Assembly (NCBI GenBank): GCA_964561365.1
Contig: CAZLPF010000002.1
Span: 10,068-74,067 of the forward strand
DNA: 64,000 bases
From: an uncultured Candidatus Saccharibacteria bacterium
Lineage (GTDB): Bacteria > Patescibacteriota > Doudnabacteria > UBA920
Reading direction: 5' to 3'
Within the stretch, counting starts at the first letter, position 1; each line of letters starts with the position of its first letter. Position numbers and translations under genes: made by a program. This document shows positions 4,669-28,559 of the stretch, piece after piece. Under the pieces are notes generated by a model. That model worked only from the letters and a program-made list of their open reading frames with translations, did not search any database and was not told where the DNA came from.

Positions 4669-4681
4669 GGGGGAGGGGAGC

Positions 4682-4710
4682 TTGAAATTTTAGTGCTGTT
4701 TCGGTAGAAT
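4682..4710 (+). promoter_or_regulatory. Sigma70-type promoter TTGAAA-17-TAGAAT upstream of tRNA-Lys leader
   Basis: Consensus-like -35/-10 with 17-nt spacer, lies between the two tRNA genes. Confidence 0.5.
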
Positions 4711-4910: not shown

Positions 4911-4966
4911 CGGGTCAATCGTGACTGCGGTTTGCGTGTACTCGACTTCGTCGAATCCACTCCAAC

Positions 4967-5228
4967 CTCCGTCACGTTGCCCCTCTGCCCCACGAACCCC
5001 CTTCGGGTTTTCGTGGGGACCCCGACGAGCAGTTCACATTCCGTCCCTTTTCCCCATTCGAACTTTGTTCGAATGGGGACCCCGAGGGCAACAAATCATT
5101 TCAGCTTTCAGGACATTTCCCGTCTTCCCAAAAATCTTTCCGAGCTTTTTGGGGACCCCGCTAACCCTACCTCCGTCACGTTGCCCCTTTTCCCACGAAG
5201 CCCCTACTTGGTCTTCGCGGGGACCCCA
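4967..5228 (+). repeat. Cluster 1 of hairpin repeats (4 units at 4988-5024, 5052-5088, 5127-5160, 5192-5228) plus two copies of 19-bp direct repeat CCTCCGTCACGTTGCCCCT (4967 and 5169)
   Basis: Each unit: CCCYTTYCCCCA + variable stem + loop + complementary stem + TGGGGACCCCG(AGGGAAC); stems differ between units with compensatory changes (ACGAA/TTCGT, ATTCGAAC/GTTCGAAT, AAAAA/TTTTT). Confidence 0.7.
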
Positions 5229-5272
5229 GTAGAACAGAAGAATCCGCTCGTACAATTCGCTCATTCGTTTGC

Positions 5273-21403: not shown

Positions 21404-21481
21404 TGGGGTGGGTAACCGGACTTGAACCGGCAACCTCTGCTTTCACAGAGCAGCGCTCTAACCAATTGAGCTATACCCACC
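21404..21481 (-). tRNA. tRNA-His (anticodon GTG)
   Basis: Minus-strand cloverleaf with extra G-1 paired to discriminator C, anticodon loop CTGTGAA, T-loop TTCAAGT, CCA encoded. Confidence 0.9.
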
Positions 21482-21570: not shown

Positions 21571-22143
21571 ATGCCAACGTACGCTTTCGAGCAGGCCCCG
21601 GGTGGGTTCGGTGCCGCCCAGCTGTTCTCGACCATCGTTCCTATTGCGGTGGTGCTCGTTCTAGTCGCCGCAGGCATTTTTGCGGCGGCGTGGTGGTGGC
21701 GAAGGCAGCAGCGCTGGCTGCTGTTCCTGAACCACCAGGAGGTTCCCGAGGTCATTGCCCTGCTGCGCGGCTCCCAGTTCGAAACCTGGGTCGAGCAGCT
21801 GCTCCGCTCCGTCGGCATCCAGGCCACCCAGGTCGGGCAGCAGGGCGACCACGGTATAGACGTGGTGGCGACCTACCGCGGCAAGAAGGTCGGCATCCAG
21901 TGTAAAAAATTTCATGACAAACTGTACATTGGTGAATCAATCATCCGCGACCTTTACGGAGCACAGCGTCATTTCGGTTACGCAGCCGTAGTCCTTTTTA
22001 CTACCACAAATTTTTCTTATTCAGCGCGGCGGTGGGCAGAGGGCAAGCGAGACCTCGCGCTTGTGAATGGCTACGCGCTTGGTAAAATTGTTAAAGATCG
22101 ACGCCTCCTCATTGAGCTTTTCGATCGGTTAGTAGGCGCCTGA
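21571..22143 (+). CDS. Membrane-anchored restriction-endonuclease-like protein (Mrr_cat domain)
   Basis: N-terminal TM helix then GDHGIDVVA ... VGIQCKK ... VLFTTTNFS pattern typical of Mrr catalytic domain (D...(D/E)xK). Confidence 0.65.
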   Translation: MPTYAFEQAPGGFGAAQLFSTIVPIAVVLVLVAAGIFAAAWWWRRQQRWLLFLNHQEVPEVIALLRGSQFETWVEQLLRSVGIQATQVGQQGDHGIDVVATYRGKKVGIQCKKFHDKLYIGESIIRDLYGAQRHFGYAAVVLFTTTNFSYSARRWAEGKRDLALVNGYALGKIVKDRRLLIELFDRLVGA

Positions 22144-25946: not shown

Positions 25947-25975
25947 TTGAAAAAACTAGGAAGGTATGCTAAATT
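25947..25975 (+). promoter_or_regulatory. Putative promoter TTGAAA-17-(TGc)TAAATT for tRNA-Arg operon
   Basis: Divergent from rluB promoter; extended -10 TGn. Confidence 0.4.
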
Positions 25976-26056
25976 GCGTCAGCTGTCTTTTGTGCAGCCC
26001 TGGTCTTCCAAGTGCAGTTCGCGGTCCCGGCTGTACCGGGGACGCAAACACAAAAC

Positions 26057-26084
26057 TGGAAGGGGAGGCCGGGAAGGGGAAACC
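26057..26084 (+). promoter_or_regulatory. Conserved leader box TGGAAGGGGAG-N-GAGGGGAAACC, copy 1 (38 nt before tRNA-Arg GCG)
   Basis: Near-identical 27/28-mer at 26423-26449, 40 nt before second tRNA-Arg. Confidence 0.45.
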
Positions 26085-26122
26085 TTGAGCGAAGCGAAAG
26101 GTGTCCCCTCACGAATTGTTTT

Positions 26123-26199
<77 letters not shown>

Positions 26200-26278
26200 G
26201 CATGGGCCATGCAACGATGCGGCTTTCGTGTGCTGAAAGACTTCAGCCCACTTCAGCCTTCCCGTTGCTGTCCCACTT

Positions 26279-26317
26279 CCCCACGAACCCCCTTATCGGG
26301 TCTTCGTGGGGACCCCG
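26279..26317 (+). repeat. Hairpin repeat unit (CCCCACGAA...TTCGTGGGGACCCCG) between the two tRNA-Arg genes
   Basis: Same family as cluster at 4967-5228. Confidence 0.65.
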
Positions 26318-26340
26318 GAGAATATTGGATCAAGAAGCAA

Positions 26341-26362
26341 TCCGCCGAAGGCGGATTTTTTG
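26341..26362 (+). terminator. Rho-independent terminator (TCCGCC-GAAG-GCGGA + T6)
   Basis: Canonical hairpin plus U-tract after first tRNA-Arg module. Confidence 0.7.
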
Positions 26363-26422
26363 CTAGACTGGCTTCAGTTCTTTTGTTTCCAAGCGCGGCT
26401 TCGCCGCTTTGGAAACTCAACA

Positions 26423-26449
26423 TGGAAGGGGAGCCCGCGAGGGGAAACC
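26423..26449 (+). promoter_or_regulatory. Conserved leader box, copy 2 (40 nt before tRNA-Arg TCT)
   Basis: TGGAAGGGGAGCCCGCGAGGGGAAACC. Confidence 0.45.
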
Positions 26450-26489
26450 ACGAGGCTTTCCGAGTGGTGTCACTTCGCGAGGCATTTGT

Positions 26490-26565
26490 GGGCCCGTAGC
26501 TCAGTTGGAAGAGCAAGGGACTTCTAAGCCCGAGGTCGCAGGTTCGATTCCTGCCGGGCCCACCA
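26490..26565 (+). tRNA. tRNA-Arg (anticodon TCT)
   Basis: Perfect acceptor, D and T stems; anticodon loop CTTCTAA identical to bacterial tRNA-Arg(UCU); anticodon stem has A-G mismatches at both ends; CCA encoded. Confidence 0.75.
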
Positions 26566-26640
26566 CGGGTCATCGAAAGCTACCGCTTACGTATTTCGCC
26601 TCCGGCGAATTACTTCAGCTTCCGCTTTCATGCCCCTTTA

Positions 26641-26824
26641 CCCCAAAAACCTCTTCGATCTTTTTGGGGACCCCGAGGGAACGTTCGGAACAGCTTCTAG
26701 GATGTTTCCCCTTACCCCACGAACCCCTCCGGGTCTTCGTGGGGACCCCGAGGGAACATGAGAACAGTTGTCATGGCCCTTTACCCCAAACTTCCTCCGT
26801 AGCTTTTGGGGACCCTTGGGGAAC
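26641..26824 (+). repeat. Cluster 2 of hairpin repeats (3 units at 26641-26682, 26715-26757, 26784-26824)
   Basis: CCCTTTACCCCA + stem-loop + TGGGGACCCCGAGGGAAC; about 70-bp periodicity. Confidence 0.7.
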
Positions 26825-27089
26825 AATCGAAGTTGTTTTCAGCAGTTTGTCCGTATTATCCAAAAATATAGGTAACGTAAAATATCAAATATTTTGAGAA
26901 AAAGTTTTCCCTTACGCGAGGGGAATTTTATTTTATCCACCGCGAACGCACAGGAAACGCACACTTTTTTGTTTGACACGCAAACGAAAATGCGATAAAA
27001 ATTTAGTAGAGGCATTCTCTGCAGATTCCAATCCAGACTCAGCATTAATCCGCCGGTCCGAGGCGGGTAGATGAGGGGAGGTGAGAAAC

Positions 27090-27266
27090 ATGCAGAACCT
27101 CTTCATGTACCGCTGCGAAGTCTGCGGGTACGCGAGGCAGAAGCCGGGGACCTGTCCGTTCTGTGAGCTGACGCTGGTCGATTACGACCGCGAAGCCCAG
27201 CGCGAGTACCAGGTCGACATGGAAGAAGCCATGCGCACCATGCGTGAACTCCAGTGGTATATCTAG
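27090..27266 (+). CDS. Small zinc-ribbon protein (CxxC...CxxC), acidic C-terminus
   Basis: ATG with GAGGGGAGGTGA SD; MYRCEVCG...CPFCE; sits in AT-rich segment next to recombinase gene. Confidence 0.5.
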   Translation: MQNLFMYRCEVCGYARQKPGTCPFCELTLVDYDREAQREYQVDMEEAMRTMRELQWYI

Positions 27267-27560: not shown

Positions 27561-28559
27561 TCATTTTTTCCCGTGGAAGCGTTCGTGGATTTCCCGCAGG
27601 CCCTTGTTCGTTACGTGGGTGTAGAGCTGGGTCGTGGTAATGCTCGCGTGGCCGAGCAGGCTCTGCACCGAGCGGATGTCCGCGCCGTTCTGCAGCAGGT
27701 CCGTGGCGAAGCTGTGCCGGAGCGTGTGCGGCGAGACCTTTTTGACGATACCCGCTACCTGGCAATACTTCTTGACCGTGCGCTGGACCGAGCGGGGCGT
27801 GAGGCCGGCGTTCGTCTGCTTTTCCTCATCGCGTTCGCCTTTTTTGTAGCCCTGGGACTCGATTTCACGCTCAATGCCGCCCGTTCCCACCGTGGAGTGC
27901 GCCACGAACAGGGCCTGGCTCGCGTCCGTCCGCTTTTTTAGGTACTGCCTCACGGCTTTTGAAGCTTCCGGGGAAATGAACACGATGCGGAGCTTGTCGC
28001 CCTTGCCGCGGACCGTGAACTCGCCGCGGTCGAGGTTCACGTTATTTTTTTTCAGGTGGCAGAGCTCGGAAACGCGCAGGCCGGTGGAGAAGAGGAGCTC
28101 CAAAATGGCCCGGTCCCGCAGGCGTAAGATCTCGTCATCTTCTTGTTCCGTGGCCTTGAACAGCCGCTCGAGCTCGTCTTGTTCTAGGAACTCAACCTGC
28201 CGCGCCGGGTTCTTCGGCAGCTCGACCTTTTCGGGCGCGAGCGTCTCGTGGTCCATTTTGCGGAGGTACTTCAGGAACGCCCGGAGCGCAATGAGGTGGA
28301 AGTTCTGCGTGACCATTTTGAGCGGCCGCCCGTCCGGGGTTTCGAGGCGGTTCAAAAAGAGGCGGTAGCGCTTCACGAAGTCGAGCGAAATCTGCTCGGG
28401 CTTCGTAACGCCGGCGCTCTCGGCGAACCTCACGAGGCGGCCGAGGAACCTGCTATAGTTTTCAACGGTGTTGCGGCTCTGGTTCTTACCGATCTCGCAG
28501 AACTCGAGAAAGTCGTTGACCGCGCGCTTCAGGGCCGAGAACTGTTTCTGTTTCTGCAC
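27561..28559 (-). CDS. Tyrosine site-specific recombinase, XerC/XerD-integrase family
   Basis: N-terminal core-binding domain; catalytic R...HxxR...Y residues (RVSEL, HTLRHSFAT, LLGHASITTTQLYTHV); about 40-aa insertion in catalytic domain. Confidence 0.9.
   Translation of the reverse strand: MQKQKQFSALKRAVNDFLEFCEIGKNQSRNTVENYSRFLGRLVRFAESAGVTKPEQISLDFVKRYRLFLNRLETPDGRPLKMVTQNFHLIALRAFLKYLRKMDHETLAPEKVELPKNPARQVEFLEQDELERLFKATEQEDDEILRLRDRAILELLFSTGLRVSELCHLKKNNVNLDRGEFTVRGKGDKLRIVFISPEASKAVRQYLKKRTDASQALFVAHSTVGTGGIEREIESQGYKKGERDEEKQTNAGLTPRSVQRTVKKYCQVAGIVKKVSPHTLRHSFATDLLQNGADIRSVQSLLGHASITTTQLYTHVTNKGLREIHERFHGKK

What the first reader, a model, noticed from the sequence alone, without database searches (positions are those of the whole stretch)
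4967..5228. Family of about 70-bp structured hairpin repeats with compensatory stem variation, clustered directly downstream of tRNA genes (cluster 1)
Seen in sequence: four tandem units follow tRNA-Lys, each built as CCCYTTYCCCCA + 5-12-nt stem + loop + exact complement + TGGGGACCCCG(AGGGAAC) + a short variable tail that often contains GAACAG. The stems differ between units (ACGAACCC/GGGTTCGT, ATTCGAAC/GTTCGAAT, AAAAA/TTTTT, ACGAAG/CTTCGC) but always stay complementary. This covariation argues that an RNA or DNA hairpin, not the primary sequence, is under selection. Units 1 and 4 are each preceded by an identical 19-mer CCTCCGTCACGTTGCCCCT. Four more units of the same family occur around the tRNA-Arg genes (26279-26824). 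This is not a CRISPR array: there are no unique spacers, the repeats themselves vary, and there are no cas genes. Inference: a tRNA-co-transcribed structured RNA family (processing signal, decoy or terminator array) or a REP/MITE-like element that targets tRNA 3' flanks.
Basis: seen in the sequence. Interest (0 to 1): 0.65.

Follow-up and report, generated by a model that had tools for sequence, protein, structure and literature searches.

The report
Small mobile hairpin repeats behind tRNAs
The eight hairpin units behind three tRNA genes are real, but they are most likely copies of a small, REP-like repeat that spreads at the DNA level in many uncultured bacteria and at least one phage-like contig, and that here happens to sit in tRNA trailers, rather than a dedicated tRNA-linked RNA.

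Summary
The window holds exactly eight units, all on the + strand, 76-80 nt and further downstream of tRNA-Lys, tRNA-Arg(gcg) and tRNA-Arg(tct). Each unit is a CCCC...GGGG-clamped hairpin followed by ACCCC. The stems covary (97% paired, 4 pairs changed on both sides).

The same core, (C)CA-CCCC-stem-loop-stem-GGGG-ACCCCG, occurs in 161 distinct copies in unrelated metagenome and viral contigs: Acidobacteria-like soil DNA, a Candidatus Gottesmanbacteria genome and a phage-like 134-kb contig. These copies are mostly far from tRNAs and have no fixed orientation to genes.

Several results point to insertion at the DNA level:
- In Gottesmanbacteria, 7-9 copies fill spacers between ribosomal-protein genes, antisense to the mRNA, and are absent from the same spacers in five close relatives.
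- Copy number differs between strains.
- Copies occur nested inside other copies.
- Neighbouring copies share a strand.

I conclude it is a REP-like miniature palindromic repeat with a new tag. In this genome it sits in tRNA 3' trailers and is probably co-transcribed with them. No mobilising enzyme was found. A secondary RNA role in this lineage is not excluded: one other contig shows the same 77-nt tRNA-to-hairpin spacing.

The parts
4978..5032 (+). Unit U1: hairpin CCCCACGAACCC..GGGTTTTCGTGGGG (4988-5018) followed by ACCCCG
   Evidence: 63.9 bits
5042..5092 (+). Unit U2: perfect 13-bp hairpin TCCCCATTCGAAC/GTTCGAATGGGGA followed by CCCCGAGGG; outer helix CCCTT/GAGGG
   Evidence: I2; z -5.5
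5116..5168 (+). Unit U3: hairpin TCCCAAAAA..TTTTTGGGG followed by ACCCCG
5181..5236 (+). Unit U4: hairpin TCCCACGAAG..CTTCGCGGGG followed by ACCCCA; paralogue of U1 (76% over 62 nt)
   Evidence: (D1)
4966..4984 (+). 19-mer CCTCCGTCACGTTGCCCCT before U1; an identical copy at 5170-5188 before U4 marks a 204-nt local duplication
   Evidence: D1
5170..5188 (+). Second copy of the 19-mer, before U4
26269..26325 (+). Unit U5, 80 nt after tRNA-Arg(gcg) and upstream of the terminator at 26339-26357
   Evidence: 65 bits
26631..26683 (+). Unit U6 (AAAAA/TTTTT stem), 76 nt after tRNA-Arg(tct)
   Evidence: 67.6 bits
26705..26758 (+). Unit U7 (ACGAA/TTCGT stem, outer helix CCCUU/GAGGG)
   Evidence: 71 bits
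26774..26825 (+). Unit U8 (degenerate: GGGGACCCTTGGGG)
   Evidence: 52.5 bits
4835..4910 (+). tRNA-Lys(ctt); its 3' trailer carries U1-U4. A promoter-like site lies at 4682-4710
26123..26199 (+). tRNA-Arg(gcg); its trailer carries U5. A promoter-like site lies at 25947-25975
26490..26565 (+). tRNA-Arg(tct); its trailer carries U6-U8. With its leader it forms a 366-nt tandem paralogue of the tRNA-Arg(gcg) module
   Evidence: (D3-D6)
26339..26363 (+). Canonical intrinsic-terminator-like hairpin AATCCGCCGAAGGCGGATT followed by TTTTTT, downstream of U5
26906..26935 (+). Terminator-like hairpin TTTCCCTTACGCGAGGGGAA followed by TTTTATTTTA, about 80 nt downstream of U8. It resembles the units' outer helix without the inner hairpin, but the match is not above chance

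Best explanation
The units are copies of a miniature, non-autonomous palindromic repeat of the REP-like kind. Its constant parts are a CCCC/GGGG clamp at the foot of a 9-13 bp hairpin and a single-stranded ACCCC(G) tag on the 3' side. The rest of the stem and the loop vary between copies. The family multiplies and moves at the DNA level. Inferred: it does so through a folded single-strand hairpin recognised by an unidentified enzyme, plus local tandem duplication. In this genome the copies have accumulated in three paralogous tRNA 3' trailers, which are among the few long non-coding stretches of a compact Patescibacteria-type genome. They lie between the tRNA and a canonical terminator, so they are probably transcribed with the tRNA and fold as RNA hairpins. 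Any effect there, such as blocking a 3' exonuclease or slowing trailer processing, would be secondary. Shown: existence, covariation, wide distribution, presence/absence at orthologous sites, copy-number variation, nesting and strand consistency. Inferred: the mobilising mechanism, co-transcription, and near-neutrality in the trailers.
For: 1. The window has exactly 8 copies, all in tRNA trailers, with covarying stems. Both stem types, ACGAA and AAAAA, occur in both clusters 21 kb apart, so copies were exchanged between loci and not only duplicated in place.
2. The same core is widespread. About 25 of the 120 metagenome loci returned by the tandem-pattern scan carry it. In the viral-contig scan 64 of 120 loci carry true hairpins, against my rough estimate of 7-10% expected by chance for such pattern hits. 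After de-duplication there are 161 unique copies with consensus (c)CA-CCCC..GGGG-ACCCCG(g). Inner lengths are 21-44 nt and there is no reading-frame preference. Among the copies with a 28-nt hairpin, 36 sequences were aligned: 95.6% of cells are paired and 6 pairs covary.
3. Insertion polymorphism. In a Candidatus Gottesmanbacteria lineage (EF-Tu 93% identical to a named genome), 7-9 copies each fill a spacer between genes of the S10/spc operon: stop codon, 6-9 nt, hairpin, 6-10 nt, start codon. Five relatives with 91-95% identical EF-Tu have no copy there and spacers of 2-28 nt. Two strains differ by one 38-nt unit between the S8 and L6 genes.
4. Copies are nested inside copies in L030 (flanked by a GGGTTT direct repeat) and L069. 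L042 and L058 differ in presence/absence of a copy. The same 200-nt two-unit module sits in unrelated flanks in L050 and L127.
5. There is no fixed orientation to neighbouring genes, but neighbouring copies more than 200 nt apart share a strand in 22 of 25 cases, p = 1.6e-4. A strand-specific DNA process would give this pattern.
6. The nearest relatives of the window's organism (HolA 41% identical, same pil-tRNA-holA synteny) have no units.
7. No Rfam family matches.
Against: No transposase or RAYT-like gene was found in the window or among 93 ORFs next to foreign copies. However, only the 25 most frequent families were listed, so a single hit could have been hidden. The genome-wide copy number in the source organism is unknown, because only 64 kb could be read. 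The GTAG or CGTC tags of classical REPs are absent, and all copies are head-to-tail rather than alternating as in BIMEs. The first unit starts 76-80 nt after the tRNA in all three window trailers and 77 nt after tRNA-Arg(gcg) in an unrelated 48% GC contig (L051), always on the tRNA strand. That regularity would fit a conserved RNA module better than random parking. Exact element ends and target duplications could not be defined. The foreign copies share only the core with the window units (12-27 bits with the window model), and the search patterns required that core, so common descent of all subfamilies is not proven.
Confidence: 0.6

Rival explanations
1. The units are a functional RNA module of tRNA transcripts in this lineage. 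The trailer (a small hairpin H1, a C-rich linker, then one to four clamped hairpins) is co-transcribed and acts as a processing signal, a 3'-exonuclease barrier, a Rho-entry or termination region, or a mimic of the tRNA acceptor minihelix (10-13 bp stem followed by A-CC-). It may have been domesticated from the repeat family.
For: All 8 units are on the tRNA strand, between the tRNA and canonical terminators. Spacing from the tRNA 3' end is 78, 80 and 76 nt in the window and 77 nt in L051, behind the same tRNA-Arg(gcg) in a different organism. Each trailer also holds a small hairpin of differing sequence at the same place. The whole tRNA-Lys trailer folds far better than shuffles, z = -5.3. 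In the phage-like contig some copies lie 5 and 47 nt after tRNAs on the same strand.
Against: Three other tRNAs in the window (His, Leu, Pro) lack a unit behind them. Syntenic relatives lack units. The three window modules are paralogues, so they give one or two independent observations rather than three. The same core lies antisense to mRNA in Gottesmanbacteria and in all orientations elsewhere. Unit number (1, 3, 4) and stem types vary freely. In L051 a strong hairpin followed by a U run, terminator-like, lies between the tRNA and the unit.
Confidence: 0.22
2. The units are remnants of duplicated tRNA 3' ends. They would be left by repeated integration and excision of elements that use tRNA genes as attachment sites, or they would be a tyrT-like repeated distal region.
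For: U4 reads CGGGGACCCCA against CGGGGACACCA at the 3' end of tRNA-Arg(tcg). U7 shares CGAA-CCCTCCGGG with the T-arm and acceptor region of the same tRNA (score z = 5.8). A tyrosine recombinase gene lies at 27561-28559, 0.7 kb beyond cluster 2. Relatives carry a partial tRNA-Arg-like fragment directly after tRNA-Arg(tcg).
Against: Only 1 of 56 unit-by-tRNA comparisons stands out, and the matching segment of U7 is not conserved in its closest paralogues U1 and U5. The units follow tRNA-Lys, tRNA-Arg(gcg) and tRNA-Arg(tct), whose 3' ends they do not resemble. There is no cargo DNA between units. The family is abundant where no tRNA is present.
Confidence: 0.08
3. The units are ordinary transcription terminators or attenuators.
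For: They are GC-clamped hairpins downstream of genes.
Against: No U tract follows any unit. The terminator scan finds none in cluster 1, and in cluster 2 only the two separate hairpins at 26339 and 26906. Copies lie inside an essential operon in the antisense orientation.
Confidence: 0.04

Closest known systems
REP elements (repetitive extragenic palindromes) and REP-like stem-loop repeats, as surveyed by Di Nocera et al. 2013 (PMC3733652)
   Same: Both are 20-40 nt imperfect palindromes in extragenic DNA with a conserved asymmetric tag next to the stem. Both are often reiterated in tandem together with flanking DNA, differ between close relatives, are tolerated inside operons, and keep hairpins through compensatory changes.
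   Different: The tag here is 3' ACCCC(G) with a CCCC/GGGG clamp, not GTAG or CGTC. Copies are head-to-tail rather than in alternating BIME-like pairs. No RAYT (TnpA-REP) gene was found. The same clamp and tag recur across very different hosts (39-70% GC) and in a phage-like contig, whereas classical REP sequences are largely species-specific.
REPINs and MITEs (miniature non-autonomous mobile DNA; Bertels & Rainey 2011, PMC3116915)
   Same: Both show presence/absence at orthologous sites, nesting, a possible short target duplication (GGGTTT in L030), and non-coding cargo-free units.
   Different: The core is only about 35-45 nt, shorter than typical MITEs or REPIN doublets. There are no conserved terminal inverted repeats beyond the clamp. 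Units act as singletons or head-to-tail arrays.
Repeated distal region of the E. coli tyrT tRNA operon, and functional tRNA 3' external transcribed spacers (from my own knowledge, not checked in the papers here)
   Same: Both are tandem repeats directly downstream of a tRNA gene and transcribed with it.
   Different: The tyrT repeats are 178 bp and contain the tRNA 3' end. The units here do not convincingly contain tRNA sequence and belong to a family found far from tRNAs.
Acido-Lenti-1 RNA motif (Rfam RF01687)
   Same: It is a small GC-rich hairpin motif found next to the hairpin arrays in two soil contigs (L030, L059), so it lives in the same genomes.
   Different: It has a different sequence and structure. 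The units do not match it or any other Rfam model.

Membership tests
REP sensu stricto (RAYT-associated) | Short (20-40 nt) imperfect palindrome | tested here: met
   The hairpin core is 21-44 nt, and 27-33 nt in the window
REP sensu stricto (RAYT-associated) | Extragenic location | tested here: met
   All 8 window copies are intergenic. Foreign copies show no reading-frame preference: 101 of 170 lie in no long open frame and the rest are spread over all six frames
REP sensu stricto (RAYT-associated) | High copy number spread over the genome | not testable with these tools
   Only 64 kb of the source genome is readable, holding 8 copies in 2 clusters. The look-up of encoding contigs has no record for the source contig
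REP sensu stricto (RAYT-associated) | Conserved GTAG (or CGTC) terminal tag | tested here: not met
   The flank consensus is (c)CA on the 5' side and ACCCCG(g) on the 3' side. Tags as defined in PMC3733652
REP sensu stricto (RAYT-associated) | A cognate Y1 transposase (RAYT) gene flanked by REPs | tested here: inconclusive
   None was found among 20 window proteins or in the top families of 93 ORFs next to foreign copies. Whole genomes were not searched
MITE | Terminal inverted repeats shared by all copies, plus a target-site duplication | tested here: inconclusive
   Only the CCCC/GGGG clamp is shared. One nested copy has a GGGTTT direct repeat. The Gottesmanbacteria insertions show no clear duplication
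Mobile repeat (any mechanism) | Presence/absence at orthologous sites in close relatives | tested here: met
   Shown for the Gottesmanbacteria subfamily and for L042 versus L058. Not testable for the window's own copies, because no close relative is available
Intrinsic terminator | GC-rich hairpin followed by a U tract | tested here: not met
   No unit is called by the terminator scan; each is followed by ACCCCG
CRISPR array | Identical repeats separated by unique spacers of similar length, with cas genes | tested here: not met
   The repeats vary, spacing is 60-76 nt of related flank sequence, and no cas domain was found in the neighbours examined
Integron attC array | R''/R' boxes RYYYAAC ... 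GTTRRRY flanking an imperfect hairpin, with cassette ORFs between sites | tested here: not met
   The flanks read CCCYTTW and ACCCCGAGGGAAC, and there are no ORFs between units. The attC consensus is from my own knowledge
tRNA-3'-end duplication (att remnant or tyrT-like repeat) | The unit contains the 3' part of the adjacent tRNA | tested here: not met
   No significant similarity to tRNA-Lys, Arg(gcg) or Arg(tct). There are only 11-16 nt matches to tRNA-Arg(tcg)
Any described RNA family (Rfam 15) | Covariance-model match | tested here: not met
   Gathering-threshold and E<=10 scans of both clusters and of foreign loci find only tRNAs, Acido-Lenti-1 at other positions, and sub-threshold matches I take to be chance, the best being isrK (18.8 bits against a gathering score of 50) across U5

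The most novel reading that the evidence does not exclude
The CCCC/GGGG-clamped hairpin with a 3' ACCCC tag may define a third, cross-phylum super-family of REP-like elements, alongside the GTAG and CGTC classes. It would be carried by Patescibacteria, Acidobacteria-like soil bacteria and phages, mobilised by an as yet unidentified enzyme that reads the clamp and tag on folded single-stranded DNA, and possibly spread by phages. In the window's lineage one subfamily may have been co-opted as a fixed-distance module of tRNA 3' trailers.
Probability: 0.25. Interest if true: 0.65.

Novelty: new variant of a known kind. Interest (0 to 1): 0.45.

Why it matters
Small palindromic repeats shape bacterial genomes and transcripts, affecting mRNA stability, termination and recombination, but they have been described almost only in cultured Proteobacteria and a few other groups. 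This family has a simple, searchable signature. It occurs in streamlined CPR (Patescibacteria) genomes, inside an essential ribosomal-protein operon, and in a phage-like contig. Those settings give a handle on three questions: how such genomes tolerate and acquire selfish DNA, which enzyme moves these hairpins, and whether tRNA trailers serve as safe havens or have put the hairpins to use. In practice, these arrays can be mistaken for CRISPR arrays or for novel structured RNAs in genome scans.

Tried and rejected
- The genome-contig scan with TGGGGACCCCGAGGGAAC gave 6 hits, all of them chance matches without a hairpin, at least one clearly inside a coding sequence.
- Exact look-up of the source contig failed. 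HolA relatives are only 41% identical and carry no units, so orthologous-site tests for the window's own copies were impossible.
- Coding hypothesis: in one frame many soil copies read H-P-x-D-x-D-L-S-L-G-T-P. I rejected it because hairpin lengths are not multiples of three, there is no frame preference, and invariant positions include third codon positions.
- An outer helix (P1), or insertion into pre-existing hairpin loops, as a general feature: the enrichment is weak (mean duplex energy -7.0 against -6.0 kcal/mol, p = 0.014). The 'empty site' look-alike at 26906 is not above chance (1 match, 1.6 expected).
- tRNA targeting as a general property: outside the window 3 of 30 tRNAs have a copy within 100 nt downstream. 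About 2.4 are expected if copies are simply intergenic; that estimate assumes about 12% of the DNA is intergenic.
- Derivation of the units from tRNA: the similarity is weak.
- Literature searches for the core sequence and for REPs in Patescibacteria or Acidobacteria found nothing that describes this element.
- The window covariance model with default filters found no foreign copy. With filters off it scores them at 12-27 bits.
- Many hits of the tandem pattern were unrelated: collagen-like coding repeats, 22-nt satellites and fully palindromic repeats.

Full report
**The observation**

Each has a C-rich 5' flank (CCCYTTW), a hairpin that starts with (C/T)CCCA and ends with YGGGG, and then ACCCC(G), often followed by AGGGAAC. 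The pattern CCCA-N(8-36)-GGGGACCC matches only these places, all on the + strand, against 0.35 matches expected by chance. A sequence profile (nhmmer) and a covariance model run with filters off (R1) each find exactly eight copies in the 64 kb. The model scores are 52-71 bits, and the next hits, at 16 bits, are the reverse strands of the same hairpins.

ARAGORN and Rfam place seven tRNAs in the window. The units follow tRNA-Lys(ctt), tRNA-Arg(gcg) and tRNA-Arg(tct). tRNA-His, Leu and Pro have no unit behind them, and tRNA-Arg(tcg) is followed directly by tRNA-Lys.

On the alignment of the eight units, the nine outer pairs of the hairpin are 97% paired. Four pairs change on both sides, and no shuffle or slid control comes close. 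Each unit folds as predicted. About five of the eight also form a short outer helix, CCCUU/GAGGG, across an asymmetric internal loop that holds the ACCCC.

**The setting in the window**

The organism is a high-GC (about 62%) relative of the Patescibacteria. Its HolA protein has no relative closer than 41% identity among 5.8 billion proteins, and one of those relatives is named 'Patescibacteria group bacterium'. Genes are tightly packed.

Promoter-like sites precede tRNA-Lys and tRNA-Arg(gcg). Canonical hairpin-plus-T-run terminators lie after U5 (26339-26357) and about 80 nt after U8 (26906-26925). No unit itself looks like a terminator. The units are therefore most likely part of the transcribed 3' trailers. 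This is an inference from consensus scans, not from RNA data.

The three tRNA modules are paralogous. The two tRNA-Arg genes, with leader, trailer and first unit, form a 366-nt tandem duplication. The tRNA-Lys trailer aligns with both. U1 and U4, with their identical 19-mers, mark a 204-nt local duplication. 'Three tRNAs, eight units' is therefore fewer independent events than it seems. On the other hand, both stem types (ACGAA and AAAAA) occur in both clusters 21 kb apart, so copies have moved or been converted between loci.

**The family outside the window**

The 18-mer scan of species-representative genomes returned only chance hits. Syntenic relatives (pil genes, tRNA-Arg, tRNA-Lys, holA) have no units.

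A metagenome scan for two TGGGGACCCC boxes 41-71 nt apart and a viral-contig scan for CCCCA-N(11-30)-TGGGGACCCCG brought in many loci in which the boxes belong to true hairpins. In the viral scan, 64 of 120 loci have at least nine pairs. My rough estimate is that 7-10% of pattern hits would do so by chance. After de-duplication there are 161 distinct copies:
- The consensus is (c)CA-CCCC...GGGG-ACCCCG(g).
- Hairpin lengths run from 21 to 44 nt.
- No reading frame is preferred.
- Covariation is strong: among the copies with a 28-nt hairpin, 36 aligned sequences are 95.6% paired with six covarying pairs.

The window model recognises these copies only weakly (12-27 bits). The subfamilies therefore share the clamp, the tag and the architecture, but not the flanks.

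The hosts are diverse:
- High-GC soil contigs that also carry the Acido-Lenti-1 motif.
- A 39% GC Candidatus Gottesmanbacteria lineage.
- A 134-kb phage-like contig with a tRNA array, a Ro60/TROVE protein and a DNA methylase.
- A 1.7-kb contig (L051) in which tRNA-Arg(gcg) is followed after 77 nt by one full unit and two half units much like the window's.

**Evidence that it behaves as mobile DNA**

In the Gottesmanbacteria lineage, seven to nine copies sit in the S10/spc ribosomal-protein operon. All are antisense to the mRNA. Most exactly fill a spacer between two genes: stop codon, 6-9 nt, hairpin, 6-10 nt, start codon.

Five relatives with 91-95% identical EF-Tu have no copy anywhere in the same 20 kb. 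Their orthologous spacers measure 2-28 nt, against 35-73 nt in the lineage with copies. Two strains differ by exactly one 38-nt unit between the S8 and L6 genes.

Other contigs show the same behaviour:
- One copy lies inside another in L030, flanked by a GGGTTT direct repeat, and in L069.
- Two near-identical contigs, L042 and L058, differ in the presence of single copies.
- A 200-nt two-unit module sits in unrelated flanks in L050 and L127.

Orientation relative to neighbouring genes is mixed. Neighbouring copies more than 200 nt apart nevertheless share a strand in 22 of 25 cases. This points to a strand-specific DNA process rather than a strand-specific RNA function.

No transposase was found near any copy. 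The check covered only the top families among 93 ORFs, plus 20 window proteins.

**The tRNA link**

Across 106 hairpin-bearing loci (895 kb, 180 hairpins, 37 tRNAs), six tRNAs have a copy within 100 nt downstream on the same strand. Three of these are the window's own. The remaining three of 30 match what intergenic location alone predicts, if about 12% of the DNA is assumed to be intergenic. tRNA linkage is therefore not a property of the family.

Within the window's subfamily, however, the first hairpin begins 76-80 nt after the tRNA in all three trailers. It begins at 77 nt in L051, a contig with quite different base composition and different neighbouring genes. Each trailer also holds a small hairpin of differing sequence at a similar position. 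This is the best argument that, in this lineage, the trailer-plus-hairpin arrangement is retained and might be used. I cannot exclude it.

**Alternatives considered**

- A terminator role fails for lack of U tracts.
- CRISPR and integron attC fail on their defining features.
- Derivation from tRNA 3' ends rests on an 11-nt match (U4 against tRNA-Arg(tcg)) and on one 16-nt match in U7 that U7's own paralogues do not share. The nearby tyrosine recombinase (27561-28559) is therefore probably unrelated.
- A coding reading of the soil copies is rejected.
- No Rfam family matches, and no paper found by sequence or topic describes the element.

**Verdict**

I file it as REP-like but not as a classical REP: the tag differs, the arrangement is head-to-tail, and no RAYT is known.

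It is a new variant of a known kind. Its unusual points are the conservation of the clamp and tag across phyla, its presence inside an essential operon of a CPR bacterium and in a phage-like contig, and its fixed-distance placement in tRNA trailers here.

Confidence is 0.6 for the mobile-repeat explanation. It is 0.2-0.25 that the copies in this lineage additionally serve the tRNA transcripts.

Noticed in passing
window 26057-26083 and 26423-26449 (also 4672-4684): A purine-rich motif, GGAAGGGGAG(G/C)CCG(G/C)GA(A)GGGGAAAC, lies in the leaders of both tRNA-Arg genes. It resembles the 3' half of a unit (GGGGACCCCGAGGGAAC). It is also complementary to the C-rich 5' flank of the units (GGGAAGGGGAAAC against GTTTCCCCTTACC, 92% over 13 nt), so long-range leader-trailer pairing around the tRNA is conceivable.
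   Followed up: partly
window 25990-26570: A 366-nt tandem duplication holds leader, tRNA and trailer for tRNA-Arg(gcg) and tRNA-Arg(tct). The two tRNAs are 83-88% identical in parts but have different anticodons.
   Followed up: partly
L007 9326-9400 and L008 9726-9800 (Patescibacteria relatives): Directly after tRNA-Arg(tcg) lies a tRNA-Arg-like piece with anticodon arm, T arm and a 3' end of the acceptor type, but without a recognisable 5' acceptor strand. ARAGORN does not call it. The complete tRNA is bracketed by a 13-nt inverted repeat (CCCTGTCGCTCAT / ATGAGCGACAGGG). It could be an integration scar or an unusual tRNA gene.
   Followed up: no
window 27561-28559 (-), 27091-27266 (+), 26840-27000: A tyrosine recombinase (Phage_integrase plus SAM-like N domain) lies 0.7 kb beyond cluster 2. 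Before it come a small Cys-rich ORF (two CxxC pairs, possibly a zinc ribbon) and an AT-rich stretch. This 1.6-kb gap is the largest non-coding region in the window.
   Followed up: partly
L030 355-400 (-), L030 495-542 (+), L059 789-834 (+): Rfam Acido-Lenti-1 motifs (31-43 bits, one of them above the gathering score) lie within 100-250 nt of the hairpin arrays in two soil contigs. This suggests that motif is also a dispersed repeat in the same genomes.
   Followed up: no
L149-L152, L161, L200, L208, L212, L217 (IMGVR_UViG_3300035696_000011, 134 kb): This phage-like contig (about 60% GC) has a tRNA array, a TROVE/Ro60-like protein (L208 8188-9720), a DNA methylase and at least 15 hairpin copies. 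Some copies are 5-47 nt after tRNAs. It is a candidate vehicle for spread of the repeat.
   Followed up: partly
L016, L020, L028, L038, L123: An unrelated 22-nt tandem satellite, TTGTTGGGGACCCCGGTAGTTC, contains the same GGGGACCCC box. Its origin is unknown. It was picked up only because of the search pattern.
   Followed up: no
L085: A 45% GC contig is full of perfectly palindromic repeats, TGGGGTCCCCGGACA...TGTCCGGGGACCCCA, present on both strands. This is a symmetric cousin of the clamp-and-tag hairpin.
   Followed up: no
soil and viral copies of the 28-nt class (alignment A6): The loop is conserved as NNRGACCY, so GGACC/AGACC occurs both in the loop and in the GGGGACCCC box (a GGWCC-type site). 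Window and Gottesmanbacteria copies lack this loop motif.
   Followed up: no
window 21571-22143 (+): An Mrr-type restriction endonuclease gene lies about 90 nt from the 5' side of tRNA-His (21404-21480, - strand) and is transcribed divergently from it.
   Followed up: no
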